From: a virus
Lineage: Duplodnaviria; Caudoviricetes
Length of the DNA stretch: 37,004 nt
Virus record (IMG/VR): IMGVR_UViG_3300044878_000210
Span: 1-37,004 of that record
Direction: 5' to 3' (one strand)
The notes beneath the pieces were generated by a model. That model was given only the letters and a program-made list of their open reading frames with translations. It was not told the origin of the DNA and made no database searches. Below are positions 1 through 37,004 of this stretch, piece after piece (position 1 is the first letter of the stretch; every line of letters starts with the position of its first letter). Both the position numbers and the translations under genes were made by a program.

Positions 1-127
1 AGATCACGATCGCCCACATAGACCAGACGCACGAAAGCGATATGTCTTTTCTCTCGCGCCTGGCGAAGCGCTACGACGCCGTGATGACGGTCAAAGACTC
101 GCGCCTGTTGTTCGTTCCGATCGGGGA
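1..127. repeat. Terminal direct repeat (circular assembly overlap), copy 1
   Basis: Bases 1-127 are identical to 36878-37004. The repeat lies inside the gpD reading frame, so it is an assembly overlap of a circular contig. Confidence 0.97.
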
Positions 128-617
128 AGCGCGCACCGCCAGCGGCAAGACATTGAGCGTTCTCGCGCTCGATCGCAGCAGCGGCGACCAGCACCGGTAC
201 CACGTCGCCGAACGTGAGAACTACGCCGGCGTAAAGGCGTTCTGGCATAGCTCCGGAAAGGGCGAGCGAAAGTCCGTGACCGTGGGCGGCGAGAACAACC
301 ACAATCTCAAAGTGCTGCCCGAGGTCTATCCGAACGAGGCCGAAGCCAGATCCGCCGCAACGTCCGAATTGAAGCGCACACAACGCAGCCAGGCCACGAT
401 GGACTACACGCTCGCCCTGGGCCGGGCTGAGATATTCCCCGAGCTGCCGGTCACCGTGTCCGGATTCAAGCCCGAGATTGACCAAACCCCTTGGCTGGTG
501 AAAAGGGCCAGGCATTCCATTACCGACAGCGGCTTTACGTCCTCCCTGGAATTGGAGGTGCGCGACGACCCTACCTCGGATCGCCACCGCGCCCACTTCC
601 GCAAGGGCGGCGGGTAA
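1..617 (+). CDS. gpD: P2 gpD-like late control/tail hub protein, 3' part (joins 36457-36877 across the circle, 345 aa in total)
   Basis: HIDQTHESDMSFLSRLAKRYDA...GFKPEID..WLV...H...SGFTSSLELE motifs of GPD. The frame is continuous across the junction. Confidence 0.92.
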   Translation, partial: ITIAHIDQTHESDMSFLSRLAKRYDAVMTVKDSRLLFVPIGEARTASGKTLSVLALDRSSGDQHRYHVAERENYAGVKAFWHSSGKGERKSVTVGGENNHNLKVLPEVYPNEAEARSAATSELKRTQRSQATMDYTLALGRAEIFPELPVTVSGFKPEIDQTPWLVKRARHSITDSGFTSSLELEVRDDPTSDRHRAHFRKGGG

Positions 618-618
618 C

Positions 619-750
619 GTCTAAAAAACCACAGTTTTGTTGACACTACATAAAAAGGGGCTGCGCGCCCCTTTTTTGTTGCTGAACCTGTCTAAAAACC
701 CTGTAAACTTTTCTATGTAAAACAAACCTATCGAAAATTTGATTCATTTA
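619..750. promoter_or_regulatory. Putative res (multimer resolution) site
   Basis: AT-rich tract. Imperfect inverted repeat GTCTAAAAAAC-caca-GTTTTGTTGAC (619-644) and a second GTCTAAAAAC at 690-699, upstream of the operon ending in the resolvase. Confidence 0.55.
652..677. terminator. Bidirectional Rho-independent terminator after gpD
   Basis: AAAAAGGGGC-tgcgc-GCCCCTTTTTT. Confidence 0.85.
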
Positions 751-763
751 CACAGAGGAAGCC

Positions 764-1279
764 ATGCCAACATCTATCGGAAATATCAGCTTTGGCGGTA
801 AAAACTTGAGCCAGGAGGACGCGGAGGCGGTAGTAGCCCAATTCGCGCAGCGTGACCGCGAACAAGCCGAGTACGAGGCGAAACTGCCGGATATCCGTGA
901 GCGCGGCGAGGCCGCCCTGCGTCGGCTGCTGCCGATTGCCCAAGGTAACACCGGGCAATGCCGGCACGTCGCCGGCTTCCTCCTGGGCCTGTACAACGGC
1001 ACGCGCTTTAAATTCGATCTGACCGACCTGCGCTGTGTCGATCGCGCCATCTTCGACGACTGCATCGCCGTGCTGCAGATGGACGCCCAGCCGCTCCGCG
1101 AAGTACATACCTACTTCCCCAAGGGTGGCGCGCTGTTCGAGGAACTGGCGACCTCCTGGCGTATCCCTGACCGCGCCAGGCTGCACAGCGTCATCAAAGA
1201 ATCATTGCTGCCGGCTGATCCGTACTATGACGCTCTGCGCGCCGATCGCACGGCCTACCTCGATAGCCAGGCGGTCTAA
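764..1279 (+). CDS. Conserved phage/plasmid hypothetical protein
   Basis: Good RBS (GAGGAA). The motif ALRRLLPIAQGNTGQCRHVAGFLLGLYNG..F.FDLTDLR..D resembles a widespread MGE family of unknown function. Confidence 0.8.
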   Translation: MPTSIGNISFGGKNLSQEDAEAVVAQFAQRDREQAEYEAKLPDIRERGEAALRRLLPIAQGNTGQCRHVAGFLLGLYNGTRFKFDLTDLRCVDRAIFDDCIAVLQMDAQPLREVHTYFPKGGALFEELATSWRIPDRARLHSVIKESLLPADPYYDALRADRTAYLDSQAV

Positions 1280-1281: not shown

Positions 1282-1638
1282 ATGAGACTCAAGCTACAAC
1301 GTCACCATATTGCCCAGCTGTTAGAGTCCAGCCAGCTGGTAACCACACCTGGCCACCGCGCCTTACTAGATGGCGACCATATCCATGCTGACCTAGACTT
1401 CCTGACCCGATTCGCAAATTTCGTGCGTGAGGTCGAGTTATTGGAACCAGGGCAACACCCAACTCCGAAGAAAGAAACGATGAGCTTGCCGGCTATCGAA
1501 GCACTGCAGATGATTCGTTTTAGCGGTTGGAACGAGCACCCTACCAGCGTATGGATGCAGAAGTGGGCGGCATGGGGAATGGAGCCGAGCAAATGGCCGA
1601 AACCTCAAGACACACCACCGCAGAAAGGGGGCGAGTGA
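1282..1638 (+). CDS. Hypothetical protein
   Basis: Fills the gap exactly: starts 2 bp after the upstream stop, and its TGA overlaps the resolvase ATG. Lower GC than its neighbours. Confidence 0.6.
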   Translation: MRLKLQRHHIAQLLESSQLVTTPGHRALLDGDHIHADLDFLTRFANFVREVELLEPGQHPTPKKETMSLPAIEALQMIRFSGWNEHPTSVWMQKWAAWGMEPSKWPKPQDTPPQKGGE

Positions 1639-2297
1639 TGCGGCACCCCACCGCCACCAACAACCTGGACCTCATCACCGGCGGGATGCTGATCGGCTAC
1701 GCCCGAGTCTCGACGGTCGACCAGAACCTCGACCTGCAGCGCGACGCGCTGCAGCGCGCCGGCTGCGGCCAGATTTACGAGGACAAGGCCGGCGGCCGCA
1801 CGAAGACCGGGAGGCCCGAACTCGCGGCCGTACTGCGATCGCTGCGCGCCGGCGACACCCTGGTTGTGTGGCGGCTCGATCGCCTGGGCCGGTCCCTTGC
1901 TGACCTGGTGCAAATCATCAACGAGCTGGCCGACCGGAATATCGGATTCAGGAGCCTGACCGAACAGATAGACACCGGCTCGGCGCAGGGGCGACTGTTC
2001 CTGGGCGTGTTCGGGGCGATGGCGCAGTACATGCGCGATGTGATTCAGGAGAACACGGTGGAGGGATTGAAAGCGGCACGCGCTCGAGGGCGCGTTGGGG
2101 GGCGGCCGCCAGCGCTCGATGACGCGGCCTTGGAGGAAATTAAAACGCTGCTGACCAATCCGAACATAACGATGGACGACATCGCGGCCCGCTACCAGGT
2201 AAGCCGCGCCACGGTCTACAACTCGTTGAACCGGGCGGGGAAAAAAGCGGCTGGACCTACCGCAGCGCCTTCACTACGGAATGGCAGTAGCCAATAA
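1638..2297 (+). CDS. Small serine recombinase (resolvase/invertase family)
   Basis: GYARVST catalytic motif, LVVWRLDRLGRS, GLKAARARGRVGGRP and a C-terminal HTH (IAARYQVSRATVY). Start moved to ATG 1638 behind a GGGGG RBS. Confidence 0.95.
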   Translation: MRHPTATNNLDLITGGMLIGYARVSTVDQNLDLQRDALQRAGCGQIYEDKAGGRTKTGRPELAAVLRSLRAGDTLVVWRLDRLGRSLADLVQIINELADRNIGFRSLTEQIDTGSAQGRLFLGVFGAMAQYMRDVIQENTVEGLKAARARGRVGGRPPALDDAALEEIKTLLTNPNITMDDIAARYQVSRATVYNSLNRAGKKAAGPTAAPSLRNGSSQ

Positions 2298-2907
2298 TTT
2301 CTATCTTCCCCTCGTCGCCTGGTGCGATTCTTTCGGGCGCATAGGCTGGATTGTCGCTCGATACCTGCAGGGAACCGTCGATCATGCGTTGAAACCGCTT
2401 GAAGCGCGCGGCGCCGGCAATTCGCACCAGGTACACGCCGTCGATATCCTGGCGCCGGCGGTCAATCAGGACCAGCTGGCCGTCCGTAATCGACTCCCCC
2501 ATCGCATCGCCGACCGCGCGCACGATGATCGTTTCTCCGCAGGACAGGCACTGATGCTCAAGCCAGGCGATCGGCAGCGACCACCACTCTGACGCCGGCA
2601 GCTCGGCCAGCTCGCCGTGCGCGTCGAACGTTGGGACCACGCAAAAATGCACCGCTTTGACCGGCCCTTCGCCCTCTGGCACCACGGCGGGAACGCCCCG
2701 GCCGAGTATCAGCCAGTCGAGGCTGACATTGTATTTTTCCGCGATCGCCAGGCATTCCGCAAATGGAATGGTCCCCCGGCTTTTCCACGCACTAAGCGTG
2801 CTGCGCGATCCCTCGAAGTGTTCCGCGACTTCCCGGTCCCTCAAAACTCCCAATACAGTTTTCATTCTGTCGATGATGGCTTGGATGAAGGCCTTATTGT
2901 GTTCCAT
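2257..2907 (-). CDS. cI: CI-like repressor (HTH plus S24-fold domain)
   Basis: N-terminal 186-CI-type HTH (SRSTLSAWKSRGTIPF...VSLDWLILG) and S24-like C-terminus (VGDAM...DGVYLV...KRFQ...SDNPAY). Divergent from the early operon. Confidence 0.9.
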   Translation of the reverse strand: MEHNKAFIQAIIDRMKTVLGVLRDREVAEHFEGSRSTLSAWKSRGTIPFAECLAIAEKYNVSLDWLILGRGVPAVVPEGEGPVKAVHFCVVPTFDAHGELAELPASEWWSLPIAWLEHQCLSCGETIIVRAVGDAMGESITDGQLVLIDRRRQDIDGVYLVRIAGAARFKRFQRMIDGSLQVSSDNPAYAPERIAPGDEGKIEIIGYCHSVVKALR

Positions 2908-3011: not shown

Positions 3012-3212
3012 ATGACCACAAGCGCCCACATGAACGACGACAATTTGACGACACCACGTTCCACCCGAGTACCGATCCCCCTGACTGCCCAGGAGGAAAA
3101 AAAACTAGCCAGCCTGGCTAAGAAAGAGTCCCGAAGCAGGCAGGCAATGGCTGGAATTATCTATCGAGCCGGGCTAAAAGCCTATTTAAAAGGAGTAGAC
3201 GCACAGCAATAG
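3012..3212 (+). CDS. Small ribbon-helix-helix DNA-binding protein (Cro/Cox position)
   Basis: RVPIPLT-EEKKLASLAKKESRSRQAMAGIIYRAGL has an RHH pattern. First gene divergent from cI. Confidence 0.75.
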   Translation: MTTSAHMNDDNLTTPRSTRVPIPLTAQEEKKLASLAKKESRSRQAMAGIIYRAGLKAYLKGVDAQQ

Positions 3213-3273: not shown

Positions 3274-3528
3274 ATGAGCCTAAGAATCACAATTTGTTGC
3301 CCGCACTGCACAGCCAGGGCGATAGCACGAAGCAGCCGCGAGCTTTCGCCGACCATGCGCGAAATCGTGTACGCCTGCATTGATCCGGAGTGCGGCCACA
3401 CCTACGTGGCCCAGCTCGAAGCCGTGCGTACCCTGTCTCCGTCTGCCAAACCCAAGAGCGAAATTCGCCTGCCCATCTCGCAGCACACCCGCGTGCGGAT
3501 CATGGAACAGATGGACTTACTCGCCTGA
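3274..3528 (+). CDS. ogr: Ogr/Delta-like zinc-finger late transcription activator
   Basis: CPHC...A.ARSSR.LS...Y.CIDPECGHTY..LE..RTLSPS. Confidence 0.93.
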   Translation: MSLRITICCPHCTARAIARSSRELSPTMREIVYACIDPECGHTYVAQLEAVRTLSPSAKPKSEIRLPISQHTRVRIMEQMDLLA

Positions 3529-3969: not shown

Positions 3970-6741
3970 ATGGCCTCGATCGAAGAATTGAAAAAGCGTA
4001 TTGACCTTCACGACCTGGCGCACCGCCTCGGCATGAAACAGGGCAAGGGCGGCGACGATGCGCTGTACCATTCGCCGCACCACCCCGACAAGCACCCTTC
4101 CCTGTCCATTTTCGTGGACCACCCCACCGCCGGCACTGGCTGGAAAGACCACAGCCAAGACGTTGGCGGTTCCTGCATTGACCTGGTGATGTACGTCCAG
4201 GGCGGCAGCGTATCGGAGGCAATGAAGTACCTGCACGAAGCGTTTGCCATCCCCTACGACAAGCAGGAGAAACCCGAACAGCAGGCGCAGAAAACGATGA
4301 TCGACTACATCGCCGACCGCTGCATCGCCGACAAAGACAAGGTGCGCGACTACCTGACCGGCCGCGCGATCGCGCCGGCCGCGCTCGAGGCGGCTCTCCG
4401 GGCTAAAACGCTCGGGTTCAACGAATGGACCAGCACCAAGAAGAACTCGGGCGACGTCGGCTACGGCGGGCCGGCCGCCGCGTTCCTGGTGCGGGCGCCG
4501 AACTCGGCCCAGGTGGTAGCGGTCGACATGCGCTTCCTCGATCCGGCGATCAATGGCGACGTCAAGACACAGACCCACGGCGAGAAGGACGGCCACTACT
4601 GGACAGCGGATCCGCGCAAGCTCGATCGGGCGCAGCGTGTCGTCCTGGTCGAAAGCTCGATCAACGCGCTGTCGGTCGATAGCTGCAGCATCCCAGGCAT
4701 GGCGGCCGTGTCGATCCGCGGTATTGGCAACGTCCACCTAATCGACTTTTCATTCCTGCGCGGGAAACAGGTAATCGTCTGCCTGGACAACGACGCGCCG
4801 TTCCCCGAAGGCCACCACAAGGCCGGCCACCGCCCAGGGCCAGAAGCCGCATGGGCGCTGTACGAGCGTCTTACCGCCCTGAATATCAGCGCCGTCCTGG
4901 TCGACCAGGCGCTGTGGCTGCACGAGGCCGTCGCCGGCGAGAAGACCGGCAAGCCGATCAATGACGTAAACGACTATCTCAAGCTGCACGGCCCGCGCGA
5001 CCTGGCGCAAGCGCTCGACAACTACGAAACCTGGTTGATTGCCGGCATGGCCGGCGACGCCACCAGGAGCGGCAAGTCCCGCGTCTACCTGCCGGCGCAC
5101 GACTACGCCCAATACTGGCGCTTTCGTACCCGGCTCGACTTCACCAGCCACATAACCAGGATGGATCGCAAGGGCGAGGAAGGCGAGGAAACACCGACCT
5201 ACGCCGACCTGTGCGGCTTTCGCATCGCCTCTCTGAGCCGCGTATCCGTCGCCAGCTCCACGGCCACCATGAACGGCGACCCGGACAACTCCCCTACCGT
5301 CTATTTCGCCGTCACCGTGCAAACCCCTCGGCACGGCGCCCGCCTCACCCGCAAGGTGCTGCTCGATGACCAGCTGCACAACACACAGCAATGGTCGAAG
5401 TTCGGCGCGATCTGGAAGCCGGCCGAGTTCTCACGGATGGTCACCATTTTGGAGCGCACCGCGCACCTGGGCGAGCGCACGGCCGCCAACTTCGTGGGCC
5501 TTGCCTGGCGCGACGGCCAGCTGGCCGTCAACGAGGGGCCGGACTGCTATTTCACCGAAGCCGAGAAGCAATGCACCTACCACAACCTCACCTTCCCCTC
5601 TGGATCGACCCAGGACGCGCGCAAGGTGATTAAGGCCTACCAGGCCACGTTTAAGCAGAACGCGGCATCTATGGCCCTGACGTGGGCTTTGGGCGGCCAT
5701 TTGAAAGTGCTGCTCGGGTTCTGGCCGCACGTCACGCTGCAGGCCGACAAGGGCGCCGGTAAATCGACCCTGATTAAACGCCTTGAGCGGTCCCTGTCGT
5801 TCACCATGTTTTCGGGCCAAAGCCTGCAAACAGAATTCCGGCTGCTGACCAGCATTAGCTACACCAGCCACCCGGTAGGATGGGAAGAACTGAGCGCGCG
5901 CCGCCAGGACGTGATCGACAAGGCCGTCGCCATGCTGCAGGAGTCGTACCAGTATTCGACCACCAAGCGCGGATCCGAAATGACCGAGTACTTGATGTGC
6001 GCCCCGGTGATGCTCGCCGGCGAGGACGTTCCGGTGCGCTCGCTCCTGGGCAAGCTGGTACGGGCCAACCTGACCGGAAAAAAAGGGCCGATGATGCCCG
6101 ACGATTTGCCGCAGTTCCCGGTGCGCCAATGGCTGCAGTTCCTTACCAAGCTCAACAAAATGGACGTGCTGGCGAAGTACGCCGAGCTGCGCGACTACTG
6201 CCTGCGGCACAGCAGGACCGGCGGCGACGATGACGGCGCCAAGCGCATGGCCGGCAACTACGCGGCCGTTCTGCTGGCCTGGCGCTACCTGTGCGAGTTC
6301 GCCGGCGTCGAGTACACCGAGGGCAACTTCGGCGCCGACCTGCTGGCCGAAATGAACAGCCACATTGCCGAGACAAGCAGCGATCGATCGCCGTGGGTCT
6401 GGATCATGGAAACAGCCCTGTCCGAAATCGACGCCGGCAACTACAAGCACCCGCACAAGTTCGAGTCGATCGACGGCAAGGAATACCTCCTGTTGCGCCC
6501 GAGTCACATCATGGACCACCTGGCGAGTTCGTCGGCCCTGCGCGAAAAATGGAACGCCCTGCCGGTCAAAACAGCGACCGTGTTCAAGCGCCAGATGGTA
6601 GCGGCCGGCGTGATGCTGGACGGCGGCAACGAGATCGAGCGGACCCTGTTCAACAAGCGCGTGCGGCACCTGTCCGCAATCTCAATCGAGGATATGACCA
6701 AGTTCGGACTGTCAGTGGCATGGCGTACGGACAAACATTAA
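3970..6741 (+). CDS. TOPRIM primase-helicase replication protein (P4 alpha-like architecture)
   Basis: N-terminal zinc-finger-like YHSPHHPDKHPS...GSCIDLV, TOPRIM VESSINALS...CLDND, and Walker A ADKGAGKST in the C-terminal half. 923 aa. Confidence 0.88.
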   Translation: MASIEELKKRIDLHDLAHRLGMKQGKGGDDALYHSPHHPDKHPSLSIFVDHPTAGTGWKDHSQDVGGSCIDLVMYVQGGSVSEAMKYLHEAFAIPYDKQEKPEQQAQKTMIDYIADRCIADKDKVRDYLTGRAIAPAALEAALRAKTLGFNEWTSTKKNSGDVGYGGPAAAFLVRAPNSAQVVAVDMRFLDPAINGDVKTQTHGEKDGHYWTADPRKLDRAQRVVLVESSINALSVDSCSIPGMAAVSIRGIGNVHLIDFSFLRGKQVIVCLDNDAPFPEGHHKAGHRPGPEAAWALYERLTALNISAVLVDQALWLHEAVAGEKTGKPINDVNDYLKLHGPRDLAQALDNYETWLIAGMAGDATRSGKSRVYLPAHDYAQYWRFRTRLDFTSHITRMDRKGEEGEETPTYADLCGFRIASLSRVSVASSTATMNGDPDNSPTVYFAVTVQTPRHGARLTRKVLLDDQLHNTQQWSKFGAIWKPAEFSRMVTILERTAHLGERTAANFVGLAWRDGQLAVNEGPDCYFTEAEKQCTYHNLTFPSGSTQDARKVIKAYQATFKQNAASMALTWALGGHLKVLLGFWPHVTLQADKGAGKSTLIKRLERSLSFTMFSGQSLQTEFRLLTSISYTSHPVGWEELSARRQDVIDKAVAMLQESYQYSTTKRGSEMTEYLMCAPVMLAGEDVPVRSLLGKLVRANLTGKKGPMMPDDLPQFPVRQWLQFLTKLNKMDVLAKYAELRDYCLRHSRTGGDDDGAKRMAGNYAAVLLAWRYLCEFAGVEYTEGNFGADLLAEMNSHIAETSSDRSPWVWIMETALSEIDAGNYKHPHKFESIDGKEYLLLRPSHIMDHLASSSALREKWNALPVKTATVFKRQMVAAGVMLDGGNEIERTLFNKRVRHLSAISIEDMTKFGLSVAWRTDKH

Positions 6742-6756
6742 CCAGGAAGGAAAGCC

Positions 6757-7527
6757 ATGAATCAAACCCCCACCACAGGATCCACCGTTGCGCTGCGCGG
6801 ACTCAAGCCGGCCAGCGTTCTAGGAGCAACCCGAGAACATGGCGACCGCCTGCGCTACCTGGGCGGCTGTCGCTGTTTCGACTGCCGGCGCGCGAACACC
6901 GCCTACGAGGCGGCGCGCAAGGTTGCGCGGGCGGCCGGCGACTGGAACGGGATCGTTTCAGCAGAAAAAGCGCGCGATCATATGAAGATGCTATCGAGTC
7001 AAGGCGTTGGGCGCCGATCGGTAGCCGCTGCAAGCGACGTCGCCGACTCCGTTCTCATGGAAGTAATCACCGGACGCAAGGCCCGGATCCGCGCCAGGAC
7101 GGAACGCGCCATCCTCGCAGTTACGACGGAAGCCGCGGCCGATCACGCCCTGGTTCCCGCCAAGGCCACGTGGAAGCTGATTAACCGGATGCTGAAAGAC
7201 GGCCACACTAAAGCCGGGCTGGCGGCCAAGTTGGGCTACAAATCGCCCGCCCTGCAGCTGAAAACGGATTTCGTCACCGTGCGCAACGCCCACCTGGTCG
7301 AACGCCTGGCCGACCAGCTGCGGTCGACCTGTGCCAAAAAAACGCTTGCCCTGGTCGAGAAGCTGATCAAGGCCGAGGGCTACGCACGCCAGCAGGTCGA
7401 CCAGCGCCTGGCCGAGCTGGCCCGCAGCCTGGGCGAAGACACCCCATCGCTGGAACCCCGCAACGGCCGAATCACTGTGAAAGCGGCCGAGCTGGTCGAA
7501 CGGCTGTACGAGAACATGACCGAGTAA
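6757..7527 (+). CDS. Hypothetical DNA-binding protein with HG..Y..GCRCxxC zinc motif and HTH-like segments
   Basis: RBS AGGAAGGA. HGDRLRYLGGCRCFDCRRAN motif, plus GVGRRSVAAASDV and GHTKAGLAAKLG helix-turn-helix-like segments. Confidence 0.75.
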   Translation: MNQTPTTGSTVALRGLKPASVLGATREHGDRLRYLGGCRCFDCRRANTAYEAARKVARAAGDWNGIVSAEKARDHMKMLSSQGVGRRSVAAASDVADSVLMEVITGRKARIRARTERAILAVTTEAAADHALVPAKATWKLINRMLKDGHTKAGLAAKLGYKSPALQLKTDFVTVRNAHLVERLADQLRSTCAKKTLALVEKLIKAEGYARQQVDQRLAELARSLGEDTPSLEPRNGRITVKAAELVERLYENMTE

Positions 7528-7530
7528 TCG

Positions 7531-7603
7531 AAAAAAAACCGCCTGGCGTAACGCCGGCGGCCGCTCCTGGTCGATCTTTGCCGCCCACCTGGGCGGTTTT
7601 TTT
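7531..7603. terminator. Back-to-back terminators between the early operon and the convergent cargo genes
   Basis: Plus strand CCGCCCA-cc-TGGGCGG-TTTTTTT (7581-7603). Minus strand hairpin CCGCC-GGCG-tta-CGCC-A-GGCGG-T8 (7531-7560). Confidence 0.75.
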
Positions 7604-8054
7604 ATTCATCGCCGCTTGTTTTCTCGCCGCCGCGCCGCGCTCGGCATGCCTGGCCGGCGGTGCAAACCAATGCGATCGGCGCCAGGTATTTTTTAACATT
7701 CACCGAGCCGCCGGCGATATCGCCGATATCGACGCATGCCTTGCGCAAGCCGCCCAGGGCGAACCCTTGCGCGCCGGCGCTGTTGCGCACTTCGACACGC
7801 TCGATGTTCGACTTACCCCAGCCGGCCTTCGGATCCACTATCAGCGGCATGCAAACCCCATTCGTCACAAAAGACTCGAATACGCTGAATGTTACGACCG
7901 GGCGAGCGAACGTTGCCGTCAAGACGCCGCCGGCCAGGACCGCACCTTTGAGCGCGAATGGTTGGATGCTGCGGTCGACCGCAGCCGGAACCGTATCAGC
8001 TGCAGCTGGGAGAGAAAACAGGACTGCTACTAAAGCAAATGGTATTTTTCGCAT
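7602..8054 (-). CDS. Exported hypothetical protein (signal peptide, 4 Cys)
   Basis: MRKIPFALVAVLFSLPAAA-DT is a classic Sec signal. GGTGGA RBS upstream. Confidence 0.7.
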   Translation of the reverse strand: MRKIPFALVAVLFSLPAAADTVPAAVDRSIQPFALKGAVLAGGVLTATFARPVVTFSVFESFVTNGVCMPLIVDPKAGWGKSNIERVEVRNSAGAQGFALGGLRKACVDIGDIAGGSVNVKKYLAPIALVCTAGQACRARRGGEKTSGDE

Positions 8055-8120: not shown

Positions 8121-8555
8121 TCAACGGCAATCTATCGCCGCCGTAAAAGTGGCCATCCCATCCTTTTTCCCGTCCGTCGACGTGATGGTGCACCGCGTAA
8201 TGCTGTCCGCCAGGCGCCGGGATAGCTGCGCCGGCCCGTAAGCGCACCACAGCCAGCGCTCGCGGTCGCCTGGCTCGAAGTCGAAGGTCTGACTATCCCG
8301 CGTACTTTCGTTTGGCACCAGGTAGAGCATTGCCGCCGGCGGTCCCGCCATCATGCCCGCGGCCGTCAAGTGCATAGGGTTGGGGATATACGCGGTCCAC
8401 CCGGTAGAAACCCGGTCAGCCTTAAACGTTTTGGCTGGAATGACGTTGGGACACGTCGCCTTAATCGGACGGTTCGGCCTGTCCATGCTGCGAGCATTGA
8501 GCCAGGGCAGCGCGAGGGCGGCAGCGATGAGAATGTAGGGGAAAGGACGACGCAT
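8121..8555 (-). CDS. STY0301-family / Tai2-like periplasmic immunity protein
   Basis: Signal peptide, pattern CP...GW.....P..L..AGMMAGPP...YLVP...W.WC.YG...LSR.L......C, and 2 bp downstream of the amidase gene. Confidence 0.72.
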   Translation of the reverse strand: MRRPFPYILIAAALALPWLNARSMDRPNRPIKATCPNVIPAKTFKADRVSTGWTAYIPNPMHLTAAGMMAGPPAAMLYLVPNESTRDSQTFDFEPGDRERWLWCAYGPAQLSRRLADSITRCTITSTDGKKDGMATFTAAIDCR

Positions 8556-8557: not shown

Positions 8558-8962
8558 TCAGCGCTCGATTGCAGAAAAAGCGAGCGCGTTGTTGCTGGCG
8601 TTCGGGTATGTCCCATTGGGCCGGCGCTGGCCGTGGCGTGGAATTTCAATGCGGCGCAGCACGATCGTTCCGGATTTCTTGTGTTGCTCAATGGCCCAAA
8701 AGCTCGTAGCGCCCGCGTATGAAAGGAAAATTGCGGCGTGCTGGCCGGTGTCTTTTCTAGGGAACTTTCCGTCGAAGAAGGTAGCGATGGCCGTACCGCG
8801 CTTTATGTTTCGGGTCGCCATGACATTGGCGCCCTCGCGCCATTGCGTCGTGCTGATGCCGATAAGTCCGGGGACGTATGCCTTGATTAACTCGACGCAC
8901 TCGCCCTCGCCTATCAGCGGCGTACCGGCAAGCTTTGCTGCGAGTGGATAAAGAAACGGCAT
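8558..8962 (-). CDS. BPSL0067-family / Tae2-like NlpC/P60 peptidoglycan amidase effector
   Basis: True start is ATG 8962 (GAGGAA RBS), 134 aa. GECVELIK (catalytic Cys), W.EG..V, GTAIATFFDGKF, GQHAAIF (catalytic His), SNNA.AF..IE. No signal peptide. Confidence 0.8.
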   Translation of the reverse strand: MPFLYPLAAKLAGTPLIGEGECVELIKAYVPGLIGISTTQWREGANVMATRNIKRGTAIATFFDGKFPRKDTGQHAAIFLSYAGATSFWAIEQHKKSGTIVLRRIEIPRHGQRRPNGTYPNASNNALAFSAIER

Positions 8963-9101
8963 GGTTCCTCCCGCGCCGCTTGATTGCAGCGTAGGACGAT
9001 GTTGCCGTATTGGTGAGGGGAAATATTGCGGTGCGCCAAGTTTGCAGCCTGGCGCCGGCGGCCCCGCGATGGTCAGCCCATCCGGCCCGCCTGGTGATTT
9101 T

Positions 9102-9386
9102 TTACCTGTTCGCTTCGCGGTCTTCGTTGGCGATGAAACGGGAAACCGCCAGGGCGAAAGCGGCCGCCCGACTGAGGCCCAGCTTGCCGGCCTTGCGATC
9201 GAGTTCGGCCAATATCGCGGGATCAATCGTGAGGCTGATCGCCTTTTTACGCCCCCCGCCGCGCGGATCGCGATCCATTTCTTGCCTGGCACCGCCTGGA
9301 ACTGGCGCCACCGAGCCGCCACCATCGGGCGCGCCCTGGATAAATTCATCGGCGCTTTTCCTGCCTGGCCGTGCTGTGATTCCCAT
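9102..9386 (-). CDS. ParG/CopG-like ribbon-helix-helix centromere-binding protein
   Basis: Flexible N-tail (ADEFIQGAPD) followed by RHH KKAISLTIDPAILAELDRKAGKLGLSRAA. Directly downstream of parA. Confidence 0.85.
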   Translation of the reverse strand: MGITARPGRKSADEFIQGAPDGGGSVAPVPGGARQEMDRDPRGGGRKKAISLTIDPAILAELDRKAGKLGLSRAAAFALAVSRFIANEDREANR

Positions 9387-9426
9387 GATTGCCCCTATTG
9401 AATGTTGAAATGATTGTATGTTGATA

Positions 9427-10116
9427 TCAGACTGATGGAATGGCGATATCGAGCAAATAGCGCTGCAGCTGCTCGACTTCCTCACATGCCAGCGGATCGC
9501 GCGGCCGGTATTCGTTGATGTGCAAGCCGCTCCCGCTGGCGTGCGCGATCGCCTTGCGGCGGTTCATGCGGAACGGCGCCAACTCGAATTGCGGATACCC
9601 GGCCACCGCCTCGGCGGCCTCGTCGTTATCTGATCCTTGCGGATCGGCCAGGTTGAGGAACGCCAGGGCGCGAATGTCATGCACCGCGCGTGTCTCGTCC
9701 AGCAGGGCGGCGATATCCTCGAACGCCCACACATCGAAGGAGCGGGGAAGAAAAGGAATCAAGGCGACGTCGGCCACCGTCAGCGCCGCCCGTAGCGCGC
9801 TGTTGTCGCGGCCGCCGCAGTCAATGACGATGTGGTCATAGGCGCCGCGCTGCTGCTGCACCTGGGCGCGCAACGTGGCGCCCTGATCGTAGGCCGAGGC
9901 CGCAATCATCGAGCGGCCGCTTTCGGCGCGCGCCGTGATTGCGCTGATGCTGGTCTTTTGCCGGTCCCCATCGACCAGCCACACCCGGTTCTTGTCTTCG
10001 GGCGCGTCGCCAGTCGCGCCGGCGCGGTTCTGTTGCGCCAGCCCGAGGGCCAGCTGGACAGCCGTGGTGGACTTCCCTACCCCGCCCTTCGTGTGAACTA
10101 CTGCGAAAATTGCCAT
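9427..10116 (-). CDS. parA: Type Ib ParA partition ATPase
   Basis: Deviant Walker A KGGVGKST at the N-terminus with no HTH, LVDGDRQ, YDHIVIDCGG, ADVALIP..P..FD.W. Confidence 0.95.
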   Translation of the reverse strand: MAIFAVVHTKGGVGKSTTAVQLALGLAQQNRAGATGDAPEDKNRVWLVDGDRQKTSISAITARAESGRSMIAASAYDQGATLRAQVQQQRGAYDHIVIDCGGRDNSALRAALTVADVALIPFLPRSFDVWAFEDIAALLDETRAVHDIRALAFLNLADPQGSDNDEAAEAVAGYPQFELAPFRMNRRKAIAHASGSGLHINEYRPRDPLACEEVEQLQRYLLDIAIPSV

Positions 10117-10148
10117 GCTTCCCCCTGGGTTAAATTAATACCGCGCTG

Positions 10149-10177
10149 ATTGTAGTTCGATACCGGGTTGATATCAA
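10149..10177 (-). promoter_or_regulatory. sigma70 promoter of parA
   Basis: TTGATA-N17-TACAAT on the minus strand. The -35 lies within the palindrome TTGATATCAA. Confidence 0.75.
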
Positions 10178-10178
10178 T

Positions 10179-10544
10179 TTACTGCTGATTCGATGTTGTA
10201 TTGCTGTGATCTTCGAGAAGGGCCAGCAGCTCCCGCTGTTCCACCAGGGCGTCGGCGATCGCATCCCGTACATGCACGGCCTCGCCGGCGATCCCGTTCC
10301 CGTTCTTCACCTCGTCCGCAACCCGGACCGCATCATCCTTGCTGAACCGTGTAGCCATCTGCGGCTGTGAAAACTGAGGATTGAGAACGACGCCGGCGTC
10401 GATGTCGAACGCCAGGCACAGCCCTTGGCAGCGCACCACGAAGCCTTGCCCCAGGAGGACACCCTGCAGTGATTTGGCGGCCAGCTCGTAGCTGGTAATG
10501 GCGTTCCTGGTACTGGTGAGCATATCTTTCCAATCTTGATTCAT
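10179..10544 (-). CDS. Hypothetical protein (121 aa)
   Basis: ATG 10544 with GGGGA RBS. Plausible protein composition (MNQDWKDML...ATRFSKDDA..VA..VKNGNG). Confidence 0.7.
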   Translation of the reverse strand: MNQDWKDMLTSTRNAITSYELAAKSLQGVLLGQGFVVRCQGLCLAFDIDAGVVLNPQFSQPQMATRFSKDDAVRVADEVKNGNGIAGEAVHVRDAIADALVEQRELLALLEDHSNTTSNQQ

Positions 10545-10584
10545 GTGGTCCCCTGGTGATGCCCGCCGCCGGCGGGCTGTTGGC

Positions 10585-10806
10585 TTAGAAAAAACGGTAG
10601 TAGGCGATGTTGCCGATTTCTTCGTTCCGGACTTCGCTATCGAACCGGACGTTTCCGACCTGGGCAAACAGCGCCTTTGCTTTCACGAACTGGGCCGAGT
10701 CTTCCACCAGGATCGAGAACATATCGTCCCGGCAAAAAGTCACCTCAGCGCTGATGCCATCCTTGCGCAGCTTTGCGACCATGATGTCTTGCAAGTTCTC
10801 GATCAT
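10585..10806 (-). CDS. Small hypothetical protein (73 aa)
   Basis: ATG 10806 with AGGA RBS, directly downstream of a consensus promoter. Confidence 0.7.
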   Translation of the reverse strand: MIENLQDIMVAKLRKDGISAEVTFCRDDMFSILVEDSAQFVKAKALFAQVGNVRFDSEVRNEEIGNIAYYRFF

Positions 10807-10839
10807 TGTTTTTCCTGTGGTTATCAACTCGACCGAATG

Positions 10840-10868
10840 ATTGTATCTCTATCTCATGTTGATATCAA
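10840..10868 (-). promoter_or_regulatory. sigma70 promoter with the same -35/-10 as the parA promoter
   Basis: TTGATA-N17-TACAAT. The -35 lies inside the perfect 20-bp palindrome TCATGTTGATATCAACATGA (10854-10873). Confidence 0.75.
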
Positions 10869-10928
10869 CATGATGTATGAACAGTGTTGTTTTAATGTCG
10901 TCTTGATGTTAATACCATGATGATATCA
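10854..10928. repeat. Putative parS centromere (palindrome plus degenerate 11-bp tandem repeats)
   Basis: 20-bp palindrome, then AGTGTTGTTTT / AATGTCGTCTT / GATGTTAATAC / CATGATGATAT at exact 11-bp phasing (10883-10926). Related copies at 9401-9429. Confidence 0.55.
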
Positions 10929-11179
10929 AAGAACTGCAGGCGCCGGTGGCCGCGGCGATCGCCAGGCGTGGTCGACCTGGTGGCCGATCGGCGGCCGGCG
11001 ACCTGGCGCCGCTCGATCGCGGCCGCCGTCGACCTGGTGCTGCAGCTGCTCGAGCGGACACTGGCCACCCTCGATCCGAGGCCGGCGCCGGCCGATCGGA
11101 CCACCAGGAACGAGGCCGAGGGGAAGATCCCGGCGGCCGGAATCTATCGCCGCGAACATGGCACAGGCAGCGCACAAAA

Positions 11180-11543
11180 CATGGGGATTTCGGCCACTTT
11201 TGCGGCTAAGTCATTGATTTTTGAGAAAACACCATCCCCGAACTACTCCGAAATTTCCCCGTAAACTGTTCCGATTTCCCCATCGCCGTATTTCCAACCC
11301 CCGCGCCGCCCCTTTGTTCTCTCTCTCTAAATCAATCAAGAAAAGAAGAAGAAAGGCAGGGAAGAAAAAAGCAAGCGCATCCCCGTACCCGCTCCGGTTT
11401 TCCCCGATTTTTTTTAAAAGCATTTCAACCATCCCCGAAATCCCCAACTGTTCCCCCTCGTTTTTGGGGATTGTGGGGATTCACTTTCTGCAACGAAATC
11501 AAACACTTGCGAACGATCCCGACCGCATCCCCCCATCCCCATG
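11180..11543. other. Putative origin for the primase-helicase (WTCCCC repeats, AT/AG-rich core, two IHF sites)
   Basis: 13 copies of WTCCCC/GGGGAW, central CTCTCTCTCTAAATCAATCAAGAAAAGAAGAAG, IHF consensus matches at 11207-11219 (-) and 11497-11509 (+), bounded by inverted CATGGGGAT/ATCCCCATG. Confidence 0.6.
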
Positions 11544-11720
11544 CTGCGCTGCCTGTGGTCCTGTCCAGCGGGAAAGATTCGGCCCTTTCTCGGCCTGGTC
11601 TTTCTGGATCGCCAGAAACACACCAAAACAGCCCCCAGGGCGCGTCAATCCGCATCAAGTACCGCAGCGGCCAAAATCGCCGTAGCCCTTGCCAGCGCCG
11701 CCTTGGGCCTTTGGCGGGCT

Positions 11721-11774
11721 ATGCACTAGAAGCAATGCCACAAGCGAGGATCGGAGGCGGGGAGGGGCCTCCGC
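11721..11774 (+). other. P2-like cos region (predicted 19-nt cohesive end near 11751-11769)
   Basis: ATGCACTAGA...AAGCG...GAGGCGGGGA...CT aligns without gaps to the P2 cos as I recall it (ATGCATTAAA...AAGCG.GGCGAGGCGGGGAAAGCACT). It lies on the downstream side of the portal gene, as in P2. Confidence 0.6.
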
Positions 11775-12553
11775 AGCGGCGGGACAGACCCCGGTGCAAA
11801 ATCGCTTTAGAGGCCCTGTGAGGCGTTTTTTCCTCCCCGGACGCGGAAAGGCGCACGCATGCGCGGAAATCGCCGCCTGACGCGGTCCTGTGGCCTGTGT
11901 GTGGCATGCGGACGCTACATTCACCGGACGATTGCGGCCGAATGGGCAAGGGAATGGCGCAGCTGGCGGAACAGCTAACCGGATGCCTTGGCGCGCGGGC
12001 GCCCCCGCTTGCTTGCGCCCCGATTTCGTGCCGAAATCGTCACGCCTGGTTAATCTTGAACCCGAGGAAATCGAAACCGGAAGACCAACCCCAACCCCTG
12101 AGCCGCCGCCGGCGTCAAATGGGACAGTGCTGTGTCGGCGGGGTTGATCGGCGCCCGGTCTTAGGTGGCGAGCTGGCGCCGCGCGGTGAGCGCGGGGTTT
12201 CGTCCAGCGGACAGGAGGGCAGGGCCCAAAGCCCCGAAGGGGTGAGCCGGTAGCCCCCCGCCGTGGTAGCGGGGCGCGAAGCGCAGGGGCGTATCCCGGC
12301 GAAGGTCTGTCCGACTCCTGGGGCCGTTGCGTTACGGGCTGTTCAGTCGTCCTTTGCCCTTGTGCGCCCTTGGGCGCAGTCTTGCTTTGCTCTCCTAGCC
12401 TGGGGTATGCCGAGGGCGCGGCCTGAAGTGGCGCGCTGCGCGCACGGAAAAACAACAAGACCTTACGAGACAGGAGGGCAAGCCCTCCCTGTACCCACCC
12501 AAACTCCAGAACTAGAAGGAAAGCCGCTGAAACCCGCATGGATACGTGATGTC

Positions 12554-12720
12554 ACCGAAAATAAAAGGGGATTGACCGAAAAAACCAGACGTGATTACGC
12601 AAGGCTAAGGCGCTATTCTTTCGTTCATTGTGTAGGGGTTTGAGTCATTGACCGAAAGAATAAGGCCTTACATTTACGGTGATTGCGTGCTACGATCTGC
12701 TCACTACCGAAAAAATAAGG
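12554..12720. repeat. Iteron/operator-like repeats upstream of rep
   Basis: ACCGAAA(A/G)AATAAGG-like copies start at 12554, 12575, 12651 and 12706. An inverted copy TATTCTTTCGTTCA lies at 12614-12627. Confidence 0.6.
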
Positions 12721-12728
12721 GTTCAAAG

Positions 12729-13352: not shown

Positions 13353-13356
13353 GGAA

Positions 13357-13420
13357 GGGCGGCAATACCGCCCCAGGGCGATAAGAAGGGTCGAGCCGCA
13401 GCGATGCGCCTCGGCCCTTG
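13357..13420. terminator. Hairpins between the convergent rep and portal genes
   Basis: GGGCGG-caata-CCGCCC and AAGGGTCGAG...CTCGGCCCTT stems. Confidence 0.45.
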
Positions 13421-13422
13421 CT

Positions 13423-26481: not shown

Positions 26482-28347
26482 ATGAACCCGAGTCTAGCCT
26501 CCAAAGTCCAGCAGTTTGAAACTGACGCGGACATCATCCATTTGATCGCTCACGGCGATATTCAAACCGTGGTGGCAACCGAAGCCGGCCCGGTTCGCTC
26601 GCTCGCCAAAATGATCCACGACAACCAGGTTGTGATTGACGAAACCGTTCAAAGCCAGCTCAACCCTGACTGGTCCGAGGACGATCCGACCAAGAAAACC
26701 TTTATCCGGAACAAGCCGGCCCTGGCGAAAGTCCCCGCCGACGTCGGCCTCGGCCTGGTGAACAATACGGCCGACGCCGCCAAGCCGGTGTCTGCCGCCC
26801 AGGCGGCCGCCGATACCGCAGTCCTCACCTCTGCCAAGGCCTACGCCGATGGGCTGGTCGTCGGTCTGTGGGACGATCGCGGTAACTTCAGCGCGGCCGG
26901 CAATGCTTATCCTGCAGCAGGCGGTTCCGGCCTGGCCGGCGCGGTGATGAAGGGCGACATCTGGACGGTGAATGTACCCGGCGTCATCGGCGGCGTTCCT
27001 GTCGCTCAACGCCAAACCCTGCGCGCCCTGGAGGACAACCCCGGCCAGCTGGCCGCCAGCTGGGCGATTGGCCTGGCGAACACCGATATTGATGACTCGA
27101 TCAATACCGGCGTCACGGCGCGCGCGCCTTCCCAGCGCGCCGTGTTCGATGCCCTGGCCTTGAAGGCCGACAAGAGCGACGGATTGCTGATCGGCGATAT
27201 CTACACCACAGTCCGCACGTTGCCCGCTCCTGCCTTCCTGGCATGCGATGGGCTGGCCTATTTGCAAGCAAGCTACCCAGCCTTGTACGCGCTCCTCGGT
27301 AGTCCTCTGGCGCTCGCGGACGCTCCGACCCCGGCAACGCTTCCGGAACTGCAACCGACCATGAGCGCTTTAACCCCTGACGGTTCATTCCTGGCTGTGG
27401 CGGCCGGTAGCTATCTTTGCGTCTACACGCGCTCGGGGAATGTCTTTACAAAACAGAACAACATCACCCCTGGCGGGTCTGTCAACAGTCTGGCATTCAA
27501 CAATGACGGTTCGCTGCTGGCGGTAGGGCTGACGGCGGCCCCCTTCCTGGCGATCTATAGCCGTGCTGGTGCAGTCCTCACGGGGCTAGGCAGTCCGGCC
27601 ACATCACCAACTTCCTCGGTCGCCGCGGTTCGGTTCAGCAACGATGGGACAAAGCTGGCGGTTACCTTTGCCACCGCTCCGGGGCTGTATGTGTATGGCG
27701 TGGTCGGGACCGTTTTCACAAAGTGGGCCAACCCGGCGGTCGCGGCGACAGCTACTCCGAACGTCAACGGTCTTGCGTTCTCGCCTGACGGTAGCTGTCT
27801 TGCGATCAGCGCGGTTAGCGCGCCTGTTCTGGAACTGTATAGCATCGCCGGCACGACGCTTACCAAGCTGGCAAGCCCTGCCGTGATGCCACCGGCCGGT
27901 TGCCAAGGGCGTGCTGTTGCATTCGACGCGGACGGCAGCACGCTTGTAGTGGGGTTCAACCAGACCCCCTATGTACATCTCTATAGCCGCAACGCAAACG
28001 TTTTCACGAAGCTGGCCGACCCGAACCCGCTCCCTCCTGGGCCGGCGGTCTACGACGCGCGATTCAGCACGGATGGGAAATACCTGATAACCGGAAACCT
28101 GGCGTCGCCGACCATGGTCTCGTTCTGGAAACGCACAGGGAACGCATTCAATGGCATTACGCAAGCAATTACCCAGCCGGCCAGCTATGGAAGGCATATC
28201 GCCTTCTCCGCAGATGGAACCTACATGGCCGTGATGGTCGATGGCGCGGCTTCCCTGCGCATCTATTCGCAGTCGTACAACCCCGCAACGCAGTTCATTG
28301 TTCCGAAGGTACAAATCGGGGCAAACAGCTACATCAAAGCAACGTAA
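26482..28347 (+). CDS. Tail fibre/receptor-binding protein with a 7-bladed beta-propeller
   Basis: Phage fibre-like N-terminus (GPVRSLAK; VGLG.VNNTAD..KPVS.AQ), collar-like LACDG..Y....YPALYALLG, and seven F(S/N)xDGxxL repeats. Confidence 0.8.
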   Translation: MNPSLASKVQQFETDADIIHLIAHGDIQTVVATEAGPVRSLAKMIHDNQVVIDETVQSQLNPDWSEDDPTKKTFIRNKPALAKVPADVGLGLVNNTADAAKPVSAAQAAADTAVLTSAKAYADGLVVGLWDDRGNFSAAGNAYPAAGGSGLAGAVMKGDIWTVNVPGVIGGVPVAQRQTLRALEDNPGQLAASWAIGLANTDIDDSINTGVTARAPSQRAVFDALALKADKSDGLLIGDIYTTVRTLPAPAFLACDGLAYLQASYPALYALLGSPLALADAPTPATLPELQPTMSALTPDGSFLAVAAGSYLCVYTRSGNVFTKQNNITPGGSVNSLAFNNDGSLLAVGLTAAPFLAIYSRAGAVLTGLGSPATSPTSSVAAVRFSNDGTKLAVTFATAPGLYVYGVVGTVFTKWANPAVAATATPNVNGLAFSPDGSCLAISAVSAPVLELYSIAGTTLTKLASPAVMPPAGCQGRAVAFDADGSTLVVGFNQTPYVHLYSRNANVFTKLADPNPLPPGPAVYDARFSTDGKYLITGNLASPTMVSFWKRTGNAFNGITQAITQPASYGRHIAFSADGTYMAVMVDGAASLRIYSQSYNPATQFIVPKVQIGANSYIKAT

Positions 28348-28356
28348 AGGGCCAAC

Positions 28357-28791
28357 ATGATTACCATTTTCCTCCTGGACGCACAGGGAATTTTTAGCGG
28401 ATCGACCAAAGCCGATTCGATGGGGCCGATGCCGCGCGCCTCGACCACGACCGCGCCGCCCAACCTTAATGGAACCGAGGTCGCTTACTGGACCGGCGCC
28501 GCGTGGGAGGTTCTGGCCGAGCGGCCGCCGGCGCCGGTGGTTGACCCATCCCGGCACGTCCCAACAAAGGTAACCCGCCGCCAGGCGCTCCAAGCCTTGT
28601 TGCTCAATGGCTACCTCGACCTGATCCCGGCGGCGCTTGAGCAAATCCCCGACCTGACCAAGCGCGCCCTGGCAAAGATCGAATTCGAGGCGTCGCAGGA
28701 TTTCGAGCGCTACCGGCCGCTGGTGATCGAGATTGGCGCCGCCTTGAACATGGACCTCGATGAACTGTTCATTCAGGCAGACGCGCTGTGA
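28357..28791 (+). CDS. Putative tail fibre assembly chaperone
   Basis: STTTAPP...W.G..W and VP..VTRRQA..AL...F.R..PLV......L....DELF..A..L. Follows the fibre gene. Confidence 0.7.
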   Translation: MITIFLLDAQGIFSGSTKADSMGPMPRASTTTAPPNLNGTEVAYWTGAAWEVLAERPPAPVVDPSRHVPTKVTRRQALQALLLNGYLDLIPAALEQIPDLTKRALAKIEFEASQDFERYRPLVIEIGAALNMDLDELFIQADAL

Positions 28792-29258
28792 GCTTCGTCA
28801 CCGTTCGATTTACCTCGCACTGGCCGTGGAACCCTACCAGCTTGCCGATTGCCTGGCTGTCCGGTTCGCGCGTCTTTAGCCACAGCATGAACATCATCGA
28901 CGGCACGGCCTACGAGGCAACCATGTTGCACGGATGCCGCGCTGTGCCGCTCGGGGAGGCCATGCGGGGCGTTGCGGTCTACCAGGACATGCAGGTTCCG
29001 GTGTCCGACATCGAGGCGGCGATCGAGTTCGGCCAGGCACAGGTCGGCAAGGGCTACGACTTCGCCGCGCTGGCTCTCCCGATCCTCGCTTCCGAGAATT
29101 GGGCGGACTGGTCCAAATGGTGGTGCAGCGAGTTGAGCTTCATGCAGGTTGCCGCCGGCGGCACGCTGATGCTGGACCCGAACGAGCAAAAGCGCGTCAC
29201 GCCCGACGATCTGCACCAATGCAACTACCCGAAGGGTGAATTGGTCCGGCTGCGGTAA
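28788..29258 (+). CDS. Permuted papain-like (YiiX/YaeF-type NlpC/P60) protein
   Basis: His (FSHS) precedes Q.GKGYD and Cys (WWCSEL), then VTP.DL. Confidence 0.8.
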   Translation: MSFVTVRFTSHWPWNPTSLPIAWLSGSRVFSHSMNIIDGTAYEATMLHGCRAVPLGEAMRGVAVYQDMQVPVSDIEAAIEFGQAQVGKGYDFAALALPILASENWADWSKWWCSELSFMQVAAGGTLMLDPNEQKRVTPDDLHQCNYPKGELVRLR

Positions 29259-35995: not shown

Positions 35996-36007
35996 GAAAA
36001 AAGAACC

Positions 36008-36460
36008 ATGCTGATGGCCCTCGACCAATTCGTTTTCGGCCTTGATACCCTGGCGTTTCAAGAGCTGCAGCGGCAAACCCAATGGAAGCACCGCCGTTCG
36101 TCCCGCATCAACGCGCGGGACGCCAACCAATACCTCGGGCCTGGTGAAGACACGATCACGCTGTCCGGTGTCCTGGCGCCCGAGCTGACCGGCGACTTGG
36201 CCTCCCTGGTCGAACTGCGCCAGATGGCCGACGCCGGCGCCGCCTATGCAATGGTCGACGGCGCCGGCACCGTATATGGCGCGTTTATTATCGAAGGCCT
36301 GACCGAAGGCCAAACCCTGCACTACGAGGACGGCGTACCACGGCGCGTCGAGTTCTCGATCAGCCTGTCGCGCACCGATGACGACAAGGCCAGCTCCGCG
36401 CCGCGCGCGCTCGGCGATGCCAGCGACGGCGACGGCCAAGCATTCGAGGCCTACGCATGA
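36008..36460 (+). CDS. gpU: Tail protein U
   Basis: MLMAL.QFVF.L.TL.FQELQR...W.H....R....A.QYLG.GEDTITLSG. Confidence 0.94.
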   Translation: MLMALDQFVFGLDTLAFQELQRQTQWKHRRSSRINARDANQYLGPGEDTITLSGVLAPELTGDLASLVELRQMADAGAAYAMVDGAGTVYGAFIIEGLTEGQTLHYEDGVPRRVEFSISLSRTDDDKASSAPRALGDASDGDGQAFEAYA

Positions 36461-37004
36461 ACCAGCCAACGCCGGATTTCCGCATAACCCTGGACGGCAA
36501 GGACTTGACGAGCGCGCTCGAGCCGCGCCTCCAAGGCCTGACCATCACCGAATGCCGCCAGGATGAAGCCGACACCCTCGACCTGACGCTCAATGACAGC
36601 GACGGCCGCCTGGCGATCCCGAGCCGCGGCGCCCTGCTGGCCGTGTCGATCGGCTGGTCCGGTTCGGCGCTGATCGACAAGGGAACCTTTACCGTCGATG
36701 AGGTGGAACATAGCGGCGCGCCGGATACCATCACGATCCGGGCGCGCAGCGCGTCGATGACAAAGAGCATGGGCGAGCGACAGGAAAAGAGCTGGCACGG
36801 TCAGACCATCGGCTCAATCGTCGCCGCGATCGCCACCAAGCACAAACTTACCCCGGCCGTAGGCCCGACCCTGGGGAAGATCACGATCGCCCACATAGAC
36901 CAGACGCACGAAAGCGATATGTCTTTTCTCTCGCGCCTGGCGAAGCGCTACGACGCCGTGATGACGGTCAAAGACTCGCGCCTGTTGTTCGTTCCGATCG
37001 GGGA
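36457..37004 (+). CDS. gpD: gpD 5' part (continues across the circular junction to 617)
   Basis: ATG 36457. P.FRITLDGKDLT...PRL..LT......EAD.L.L.L.D.DG.L.IP.RG...KG.F.VDEVEHSGAPD. Confidence 0.92.
   Translation, partial: MNQPTPDFRITLDGKDLTSALEPRLQGLTITECRQDEADTLDLTLNDSDGRLAIPSRGALLAVSIGWSGSALIDKGTFTVDEVEHSGAPDTITIRARSASMTKSMGERQEKSWHGQTIGSIVAAIATKHKLTPAVGPTLGKITIAHIDQTHESDMSFLSRLAKRYDAVMTVKDSRLLFVPIG
36878..37004. repeat. Terminal direct repeat (circular assembly overlap), copy 2
   Basis: Identical to 1-127. Confidence 0.97.

What the first reader, a model, noticed from the sequence alone, without database searches (positions are those of the whole stretch)
1..37004. An integrase-less P2-type phage rebuilt as a phage-plasmid
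Seen: a circular contig with a complete P2 virion gene set and a CI repressor, and no ORF with tyrosine or large-serine integrase features. Established: P2/186-like temperate phages normally integrate via a tyrosine integrase next to gpD/ogr. Here that slot holds a small resolvase with a res-like site, and two other P2 accessory slots hold ParA/ParG with centromere-like repeats and a RepL-like initiator with iterons. Inference: the three functions of a low-copy circular plasmid (replication, partition, dimer resolution) were acquired at three separate loci, so the prophage is kept as an episome. The best-known phage-plasmids (P1, N15, SSU5 groups) are not P2-like, so this may be a poorly described lineage.
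Basis: partly seen in the sequence, partly recalled or inferred. Interest (0 to 1): 0.85.

Follow-up and report, generated by a model that had tools for sequence, protein, structure and literature searches.

The report
KS14-type P2 phage-plasmid, RepL initiator
This complete 37-kb P2-type bacterial virus has no integration enzyme and carries plasmid copying, segregation and likely dimer-resolving genes, so it likely rests in its host as a free circle, as the known Burkholderia phage KS14 does, though with a different copying protein.

Summary
The record is a 36,877-bp circle with a full P2 virion set and no tyrosine or large-serine integrase. It has a small serine recombinase with a conserved res-like site, ParA plus a ribbon-helix-helix partner with palindromic sites, and a RepL-like initiator with conserved repeats. 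Burkholderia phage KS14, recovered as a plasmid from lysogens in 2010, has the same gene order (recombinase 67%, ParA 65%, primase 68% identical). KS14 differs in carrying a Rep3 initiator. Among 54 related elements in bacterial genomes, 45 have an integrase and no ParA. Seven have ParA, no integrase, and lie on contigs of 6.7-35 kb; 4 of the 5 fetched whole close as circles. ParA-bearing elements form one primase clade with KS14, and their initiator slot holds three Rep types. Two corrections: in the nearest integrating relatives the integrase follows the primase, so the resolvase is not in its slot; and the primase-helicase is likely a separate lytic replicon. The host is likely Oxalobacteraceae. 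Episomal state of this element was not tested directly. The scan noted KS14-type elements before on other DNA.

The parts
1..127 (.). Terminal direct repeat (copy at 36878-37004); circle of 36,877 bp
618..730 (.). res-like site: inverted half-site pair at 618-645, hairpin, two further half-sites at 689 and 716
764..1279 (+). DUF7673 gene, first gene of the recombinase run
1638..2297 (+). Small serine recombinase (resolvase/invertase family), 67% identical to KS14 gp6
2257..2907 (-). CI-like repressor, 186-type N-terminal domain, S24 domain with Ala at the catalytic Ser position
3012..3212 (+). Arc-like small repressor
3274..3528 (+). Ogr/Delta late activator
3970..6741 (+). Zn-finger/Toprim primase-helicase, likely the lytic replication protein; shared with KS14 (68%) and integrating KS5 (70%)
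9102..9386 (-). Ribbon-helix-helix protein (ParG-like), predicted centromere binder
9411..9430 (.). par palindrome between parA end and RHH gene (TGATATCA at 9422)
9427..10116 (-). Short ParA ATPase, 65% identical to KS14 gp40
10147..10177 (-). sigma70-like promoter with the par palindrome over its -35 box
10179..10806 (-). Two small unknown genes (10179-10544, 10585-10806) upstream of parA; the first is conserved in the Oxalobacteraceae branch
10838..10930 (-). Second promoter and palindrome pair 61 bp apart (10860, 10921), the same spacing as in KS14
11160..11540 (.). Conserved non-coding repeat region, also present between primase and integrase in integrating relatives; candidate lytic origin
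11748..11785 (.). cos-like motif (likeness to P2-type cos is recalled, not tested); conserved in L083
12170..12315 (.). Conserved structured non-coding element shared by elements with two different Rep types; no Rfam match
12550..12722 (.). Iteron-like direct and inverted repeats, predicted plasmid origin
12729..13352 (+). RepL-like plasmid initiator
13423..37004 (.). P2 virion, lysis and tail genes Q to D (D continues at 1-617)

Best explanation
This is a complete, integrase-free P2-type phage with the KS14 gene order that likely persists in a Burkholderiales (likely Oxalobacteraceae) host as a circular plasmid prophage. Shown: the genes, the conserved sites and the absence of an integrase. 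Inferred for lysogeny: CI shuts off the lytic arm; the RepL-like protein binds the repeats at 12550-12722 and starts plasmid replication; the RHH protein binds the TGATATCA palindromes, repressing the two promoters they overlap and acting as adaptor for ParA (type Ib layout); the serine recombinase resolves dimers at the single res-like site. Inferred for lytic growth: the primase-helicase replicates from the repeat region at 11160-11540 and Ogr turns on the virion genes. The plasmid parts are exchangeable within the clade: three initiator types occupy the slot before the portal gene, and the recombinase is dispensable.
For: KS14 has the same order and close orthologues and was recovered as a plasmid from five putative lysogens (PMC3091744 section 12). 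Of 54 primase loci in bacterial genomes, 45 have an integrase and none of those shows ParA in the fetched flank; 7 have ParA and no integrase, on contigs of 6.7-35.3 kb. Four of 5 such contigs fetched whole have exact 95-127-nt terminal repeats, and each of the 5 genomes has one capsid match. The Duganella sp. SG902 circle has an 84-85% identical RepL in the same slot. The 54%-identical pMOS6 Rep is reported sufficient for replication (PMC3832669 section 15, 'data not shown'), and close homologues sit on 2.7-3.4-kb plasmids. Sites co-occur with their proteins. ParA-bearing primases form one clade (SH 99; SH-aLRT 96).
Against: No host genome for this element, so the episome is not observed here. 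A cohesive-end phage can assemble as a circle whatever its lifestyle (established knowledge). FLC10, with the same layout, is tabulated as lytic in a review (PMC12388082). [quoted passage not shown] The recombinase is closer to a DNA invertase structure (E 1.5e-52) than to gamma-delta resolvase (E 2e-27) and is absent from 3 of 5 genome-derived relatives. RepL scores under the Pfam cut-off. The gpD tree does not keep the ParA-bearing elements together.
Confidence: 0.8

Rival explanations
1. The phage is effectively lytic or in a carrier state; the plasmid genes are remnants or only stabilise a short extrachromosomal phase.
For: The record comes from a virus collection and has about 75-130-fold contig depth in one sediment run. 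FLC10 is listed as lytic.
Against: Repressor, par, rep and their sites are intact and conserved. Relatives sit as closed circles in isolate assemblies. KS14 lysogens were obtained.
Confidence: 0.09
2. The phage integrates by another route (the small serine recombinase or a host recombinase), and par/rep serve the excised form.
For: P88 has partition genes and integrates. The recombinase gives a partial hit to a PHROG labelled integrase.
Against: 219 aa with no PF07508 domain. None of 7 ParA-bearing relatives is flanked by chromosome in its assembly. The recombinase is missing in 3 of 5.
Confidence: 0.06
3. The element is a plasmid with a non-functional virion module.
For: The repressor appears non-cleavable and this genome has no LexA box, so no induction route is evident.
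Against: All P2 virion families are present as open frames of expected size. KS14 also lacks a LexA box and makes virions.
Confidence: 0.05

Closest known systems
Burkholderia phage KS14 (NC_015273, Kisquattuordecimvirus; also FLC5, FLC10, CEP1)
   Same: P2 virion, no integrase, order D-recombinase-CI-ogr-primase-RHH-ParA-Rep-portal; 33 of 48 window proteins hit at mean 60% identity; par palindrome pair 61 bp apart.
   Different: KS14 has a Rep3/RepB initiator; the window has a RepL-like one with no match in 50,697 phage records. Nucleotide similarity about 38%. Different tail and accessory genes; likely Oxalobacteraceae host.
Burkholderia phage KS5 and related integrating prophages
   Same: P2 virion, same primase-helicase (70%) and the same non-coding region after it.
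   Different: Tyrosine integrase after the primase; no ParA, Rep, recombinase or S24-type CI.
P2-type plasmids pZM36 (Zymomonas), pArsFIN13 (Arsenophonus), Haematospirillum H5569 plasmid
   Same: P2 virion genes with a ParA-like ATPase on circular plasmid records.
   Different: ParA only 27-29% identical, no hit to the window's primase or RepL; likely separate origins.
RepL replicon of Paracoccus plasmid pMOS6
   Same: 54% identical initiator; origin with repeats upstream of the gene.
   Different: A 7.7-kb mobilisable plasmid with two 18-bp repeats; here five shorter direct and inverted repeats in a phage.

Membership tests
P2-like phages (Peduoviridae) | P2 head and contractile tail gene set in P2 order | tested here: met
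P2-like phages (Peduoviridae) | gpA rolling-circle initiator and tyrosine integrase of P2 proper | tested here: not met
   Primase-helicase instead, no integrase; KS14, classed in Peduoviridae, also lacks both
KS14-type plasmid prophage | No integrase; small serine recombinase next to CI | tested here: met
KS14-type plasmid prophage | ParA and RHH gene after the primase, with conserved palindromes | tested here: met
KS14-type plasmid prophage | Plasmid initiator just before the portal gene | tested here: met
   Same slot, different protein family
KS14-type plasmid prophage | Recovered as a plasmid from lysogens | not testable with these tools
   No host; only assembled contigs of one run held it in full
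Genus Kisquattuordecimvirus | About 70% whole-genome nucleotide similarity (threshold recalled) | tested here: not met
   blastn coverage x identity 38% to KS14, 37% to FLC10 (one-way estimate, not VIRIDIC)
Type Ib partition system | Short Walker ATPase without N-terminal DNA-binding domain plus small RHH protein | tested here: met
   229-aa ParA with Walker A at the N-terminus; RHH_1 hit just under cut-off (19.9 vs 20.5)
Type Ib partition system | Adaptor binds the repeats and stabilises a replicon | not testable with these tools
   Needs binding and stability assays
RepL initiators (PF05732) | Pfam gathering score | tested here: inconclusive
   18.2 vs 20.3 bits, but 49-58% identity to proteins annotated RepL
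Dimer resolvase rather than invertase | One multi-subsite res locus per genome, no inverted second site | tested here: inconclusive
   One half-site cluster, six scattered single matches elsewhere; protein closer to an invertase

The most novel reading that the evidence does not exclude
KS14 is one tip of an undescribed, single-origin phage-plasmid group across Burkholderiaceae and Oxalobacteraceae with a fixed initiator socket that accepts three different Rep proteins. The conserved structured element at 12170-12315, kept across two Rep types, is a Rep-independent module that lets small-plasmid initiators run a 35-kb prophage.
Probability: 0.25. Interest if true: 0.55.

Novelty: new member of a known kind. 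Interest (0 to 1): 0.32.

Why it matters
It extends the KS14 lifestyle from a few Burkholderia phages to soil and sediment Oxalobacteraceae and provides cultured strains (Duganella sp. SG902, Duganella rivi FT55W) in which it can be tested. The clean split between integrase and par/rep in otherwise similar phages makes the group a tractable model of how an integrating phage becomes a plasmid. The concept itself is not new.

Tried and rejected
Hidden integrase: none; none in 5 IMG/VR relatives 90-100% complete. Host junctions: only assembled contigs were available; run X1, possibly the source, covers all 60 bins at 73-130 depth with no high-depth joint listed, but loose-end tables were cut (181 and 38 rows hidden), so this is not evidence either way. 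Run X2 held 0.05 of the words and was not used. The ATCCCC repeats at 11183-11535 were rejected as RepL iterons because the region is shared with integrating prophages. LexA box in the window: none. Rfam and tRNA scans: none. Single-strand folding of 12130-12500 was no better than shuffles (z 0.71). ESM Atlas search of the 10179-10544 protein: no named family. PDB search of RepL: no hit. ParA scan of IMG/VR found only 3 distant loci. RepL was found in 1 of 401 genomes sampled from the SG902 family, SG902 itself. The full mixture-model primase tree did not finish. pLA6_12 RepL (PMC6789725) was not compared by sequence. Copy number relative to chromosome could not be obtained.

Full report
Observation. 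The window is the whole record G000, one contig with a 127-nt exact terminal repeat, so a circle of 36,877 bp; gpD is one open frame across the junction. Pfam and PHROGs scans of 54 ORFs give the full P2 set from portal to gpD with lysis genes. Six-frame searches for PF00589 and PF07508 found nothing, and 16 integrases from related prophages gave no hit better than E 9.7. The non-virion arc holds a 219-aa serine recombinase, a CI-like repressor, an Arc-like gene, ogr, a 923-aa primase-helicase, an RHH gene, ParA and a RepL-like gene next to the portal.

Sites. Upstream of the recombinase run lies a cluster of four 12-bp half-sites (618, 634 inverted, 689, 716). A cluster of two or more is present in 15 of 18 recombinase-bearing loci and 0 of 14 without; the motif came from 7 of the 18, and KS14, FLC10 and L046 are the misses. 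TGATATCA occurs 4 times, all around the par genes, and near parA in 12 of 16 loci. Two copies overlap the -35 boxes of the only two promoter-like sites found at 8900-13500 (shuffles gave 1.4 on average, so the promoters alone are weak evidence). Upstream of RepL are five copies of a 14-bp motif, direct and inverted, conserved in 7 of 7 aligned loci. Both motif counts exceeded all 2000 resamples, with motifs chosen after inspection.

Precedent. KS14 is the best or near-best phage hit for ParA and the recombinase and has the same gene order. Lynch et al. (PMC3091744; passages and section 12 read) report that it lacks a tyrosine integrase and recovered it by miniprep from five putative lysogens. 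Pfeifer et al. (PMC7969092; passages and section 25) place KS14 in the uncurated VP882 community; their supplementary table could not be read and may list further P2-type or Oxalobacteraceae elements. P2-capsid plasmids with ParA-like genes are also on record in Zymomonas, Arsenophonus and Haematospirillum. Searches for KS14 + plasmid prophage + P2-like returned only the 2010 paper; searches showed no description of an Oxalobacteraceae branch in the listings seen (25 of 540), which is a limited library.

Comparative test. A primase scan of GTDB genomes gave 54 loci. Forty-five have an integrase: 42 by Pfam and 3 by tblastn, one weakly. None of the 45 shows ParA in the fetched flank. Seven have ParA and no integrase and lie on contigs of 6.7-35.3 kb; two more are truncated. 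Five of the seven were fetched whole. Duganella rivi FT55W, Duganella sp. SG902, Paraburkholderia lycopersici and a Pseudoduganella MAG have exact terminal repeats of 95-127 nt; the Massilia scaffold has none and contains 56 N. Each genome has one capsid match. In a FastTree of 62 primases the 15 ParA-bearing rows, with 2 truncated rows, form one clade including KS14 (SH 99); IQ-TREE on 28 chosen rows agrees (96). The gpD tree does not: KS14, FLC10 and L046 mix with integrating prophages (one of its 5 changes is a mislabelled duplicate, L111). The window's gpD falls in a supported clade whose named hosts are Massilia, Duganella and Pseudoduganella, the basis for the host guess. The early region therefore behaves as a module that has moved between virion sets.

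Exchangeable parts. The slot before the portal holds the window-type RepL (window, L006-L011, L014, SG902), a second winged-helix type (L022, D. rivi, Massilia, Pseudoduganella; PF05732 E 9e-8 for L083 but only E 0.027 to the window protein), or Rep3 (KS14, FLC10, L045, L046). The recombinase is missing in 3 of 5 genome-derived elements. The window RepL has no match in 50,697 phage records but 117 plasmid records, the closest being 2.7-3.4-kb plasmids. Its 54% homologue in pMOS6 is reported sufficient for replication (PMC3832669, passages and section 15). A solitary repL also suffices in pLA6_12 (PMC6789725, passages and section 8), not compared here by sequence.

Corrections. In KS5 and the other integrating relatives the integrase follows the primase, separated by a non-coding region that the window keeps at 11160-11370. 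In the window par lies before that region and rep after it, so rep is nearer the old integrase position than the resolvase is. That region is likely the lytic origin, giving two replication systems. The CI has Ala at the S24 catalytic Ser position; 2 of 22 clade repressors keep the Ser and both have Arg at the Lys position (residue roles recalled). Its only PDB hit is 2fjr, repressor CI (identity as phage 186 CI recalled). Several relatives have a LexA box between cI and ogr, where the window has the Arc-like gene and no box, so the induction route here is open.

Limits. The element itself is not seen in a host. Only assembled contigs of one run held it fully. A review tabulates FLC10 as lytic (PMC12388082, passages), and P88 integrates despite partition genes. 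Passages of PMC6015842, PMC5304414, PMC12860723, PMC13586616 and PMC13366799 added nothing decisive.

Verdict. A real, complete KS14-type phage-plasmid candidate at about 38% nucleotide similarity to KS14, with a swapped initiator. New member of a known kind; interest 0.32.

Noticed in passing
window 8558-8962 (-) and 8121-8555 (-): BPSL0067-family gene, homologous to type VI amidase effector 2 (PDB 6win, E 4e-19), followed by a STY0301-family gene: a likely antibacterial effector-immunity pair carried by a phage. Homologues of the first lie in a different slot in L021 and L027.
   Followed up: partly
window 12170-12315: Conserved structured non-coding element with two-sided changes in 15 of 36 predicted pairs across 9 loci (one block of changes is shared by 4 related sequences), kept across two Rep types; no Rfam hit.
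   Followed up: partly
window 2257-2907; L019:11436, L022:11451, L025:4482, L028:11434: Repressor lacks the S24 catalytic serine; four relatives carry a perfect LexA box where the window has an Arc-like gene.
   Followed up: partly
window 6754-7605: A low-depth contig in run X1 replaces this stretch with 282 other letters: a co-occurring variant lacking ORF 6757-7527.
   Followed up: no
window 26482-29258: A 621-aa beta-propeller tail protein and two small genes inserted between gpI and the tail fibre, absent from the nine compared genomes.
   Followed up: no
window 23063-23773 (-): N6/N4 DNA methyltransferase between gpS and gpV, present in the Oxalobacteraceae relatives and phiE12-2, absent from KS14.
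   Followed up: no
L017 (phiE12-2) 9371-12748: This P2-like phage has ParA (59%) and an RHH gene beside a gpA-type initiator, with no integrase annotated and no hit to the Rep types tested.
   Followed up: partly
L046:10292-11244: The Paraburkholderia bryophila element has a different ParA type (24% identity) in the same slot.
   Followed up: no
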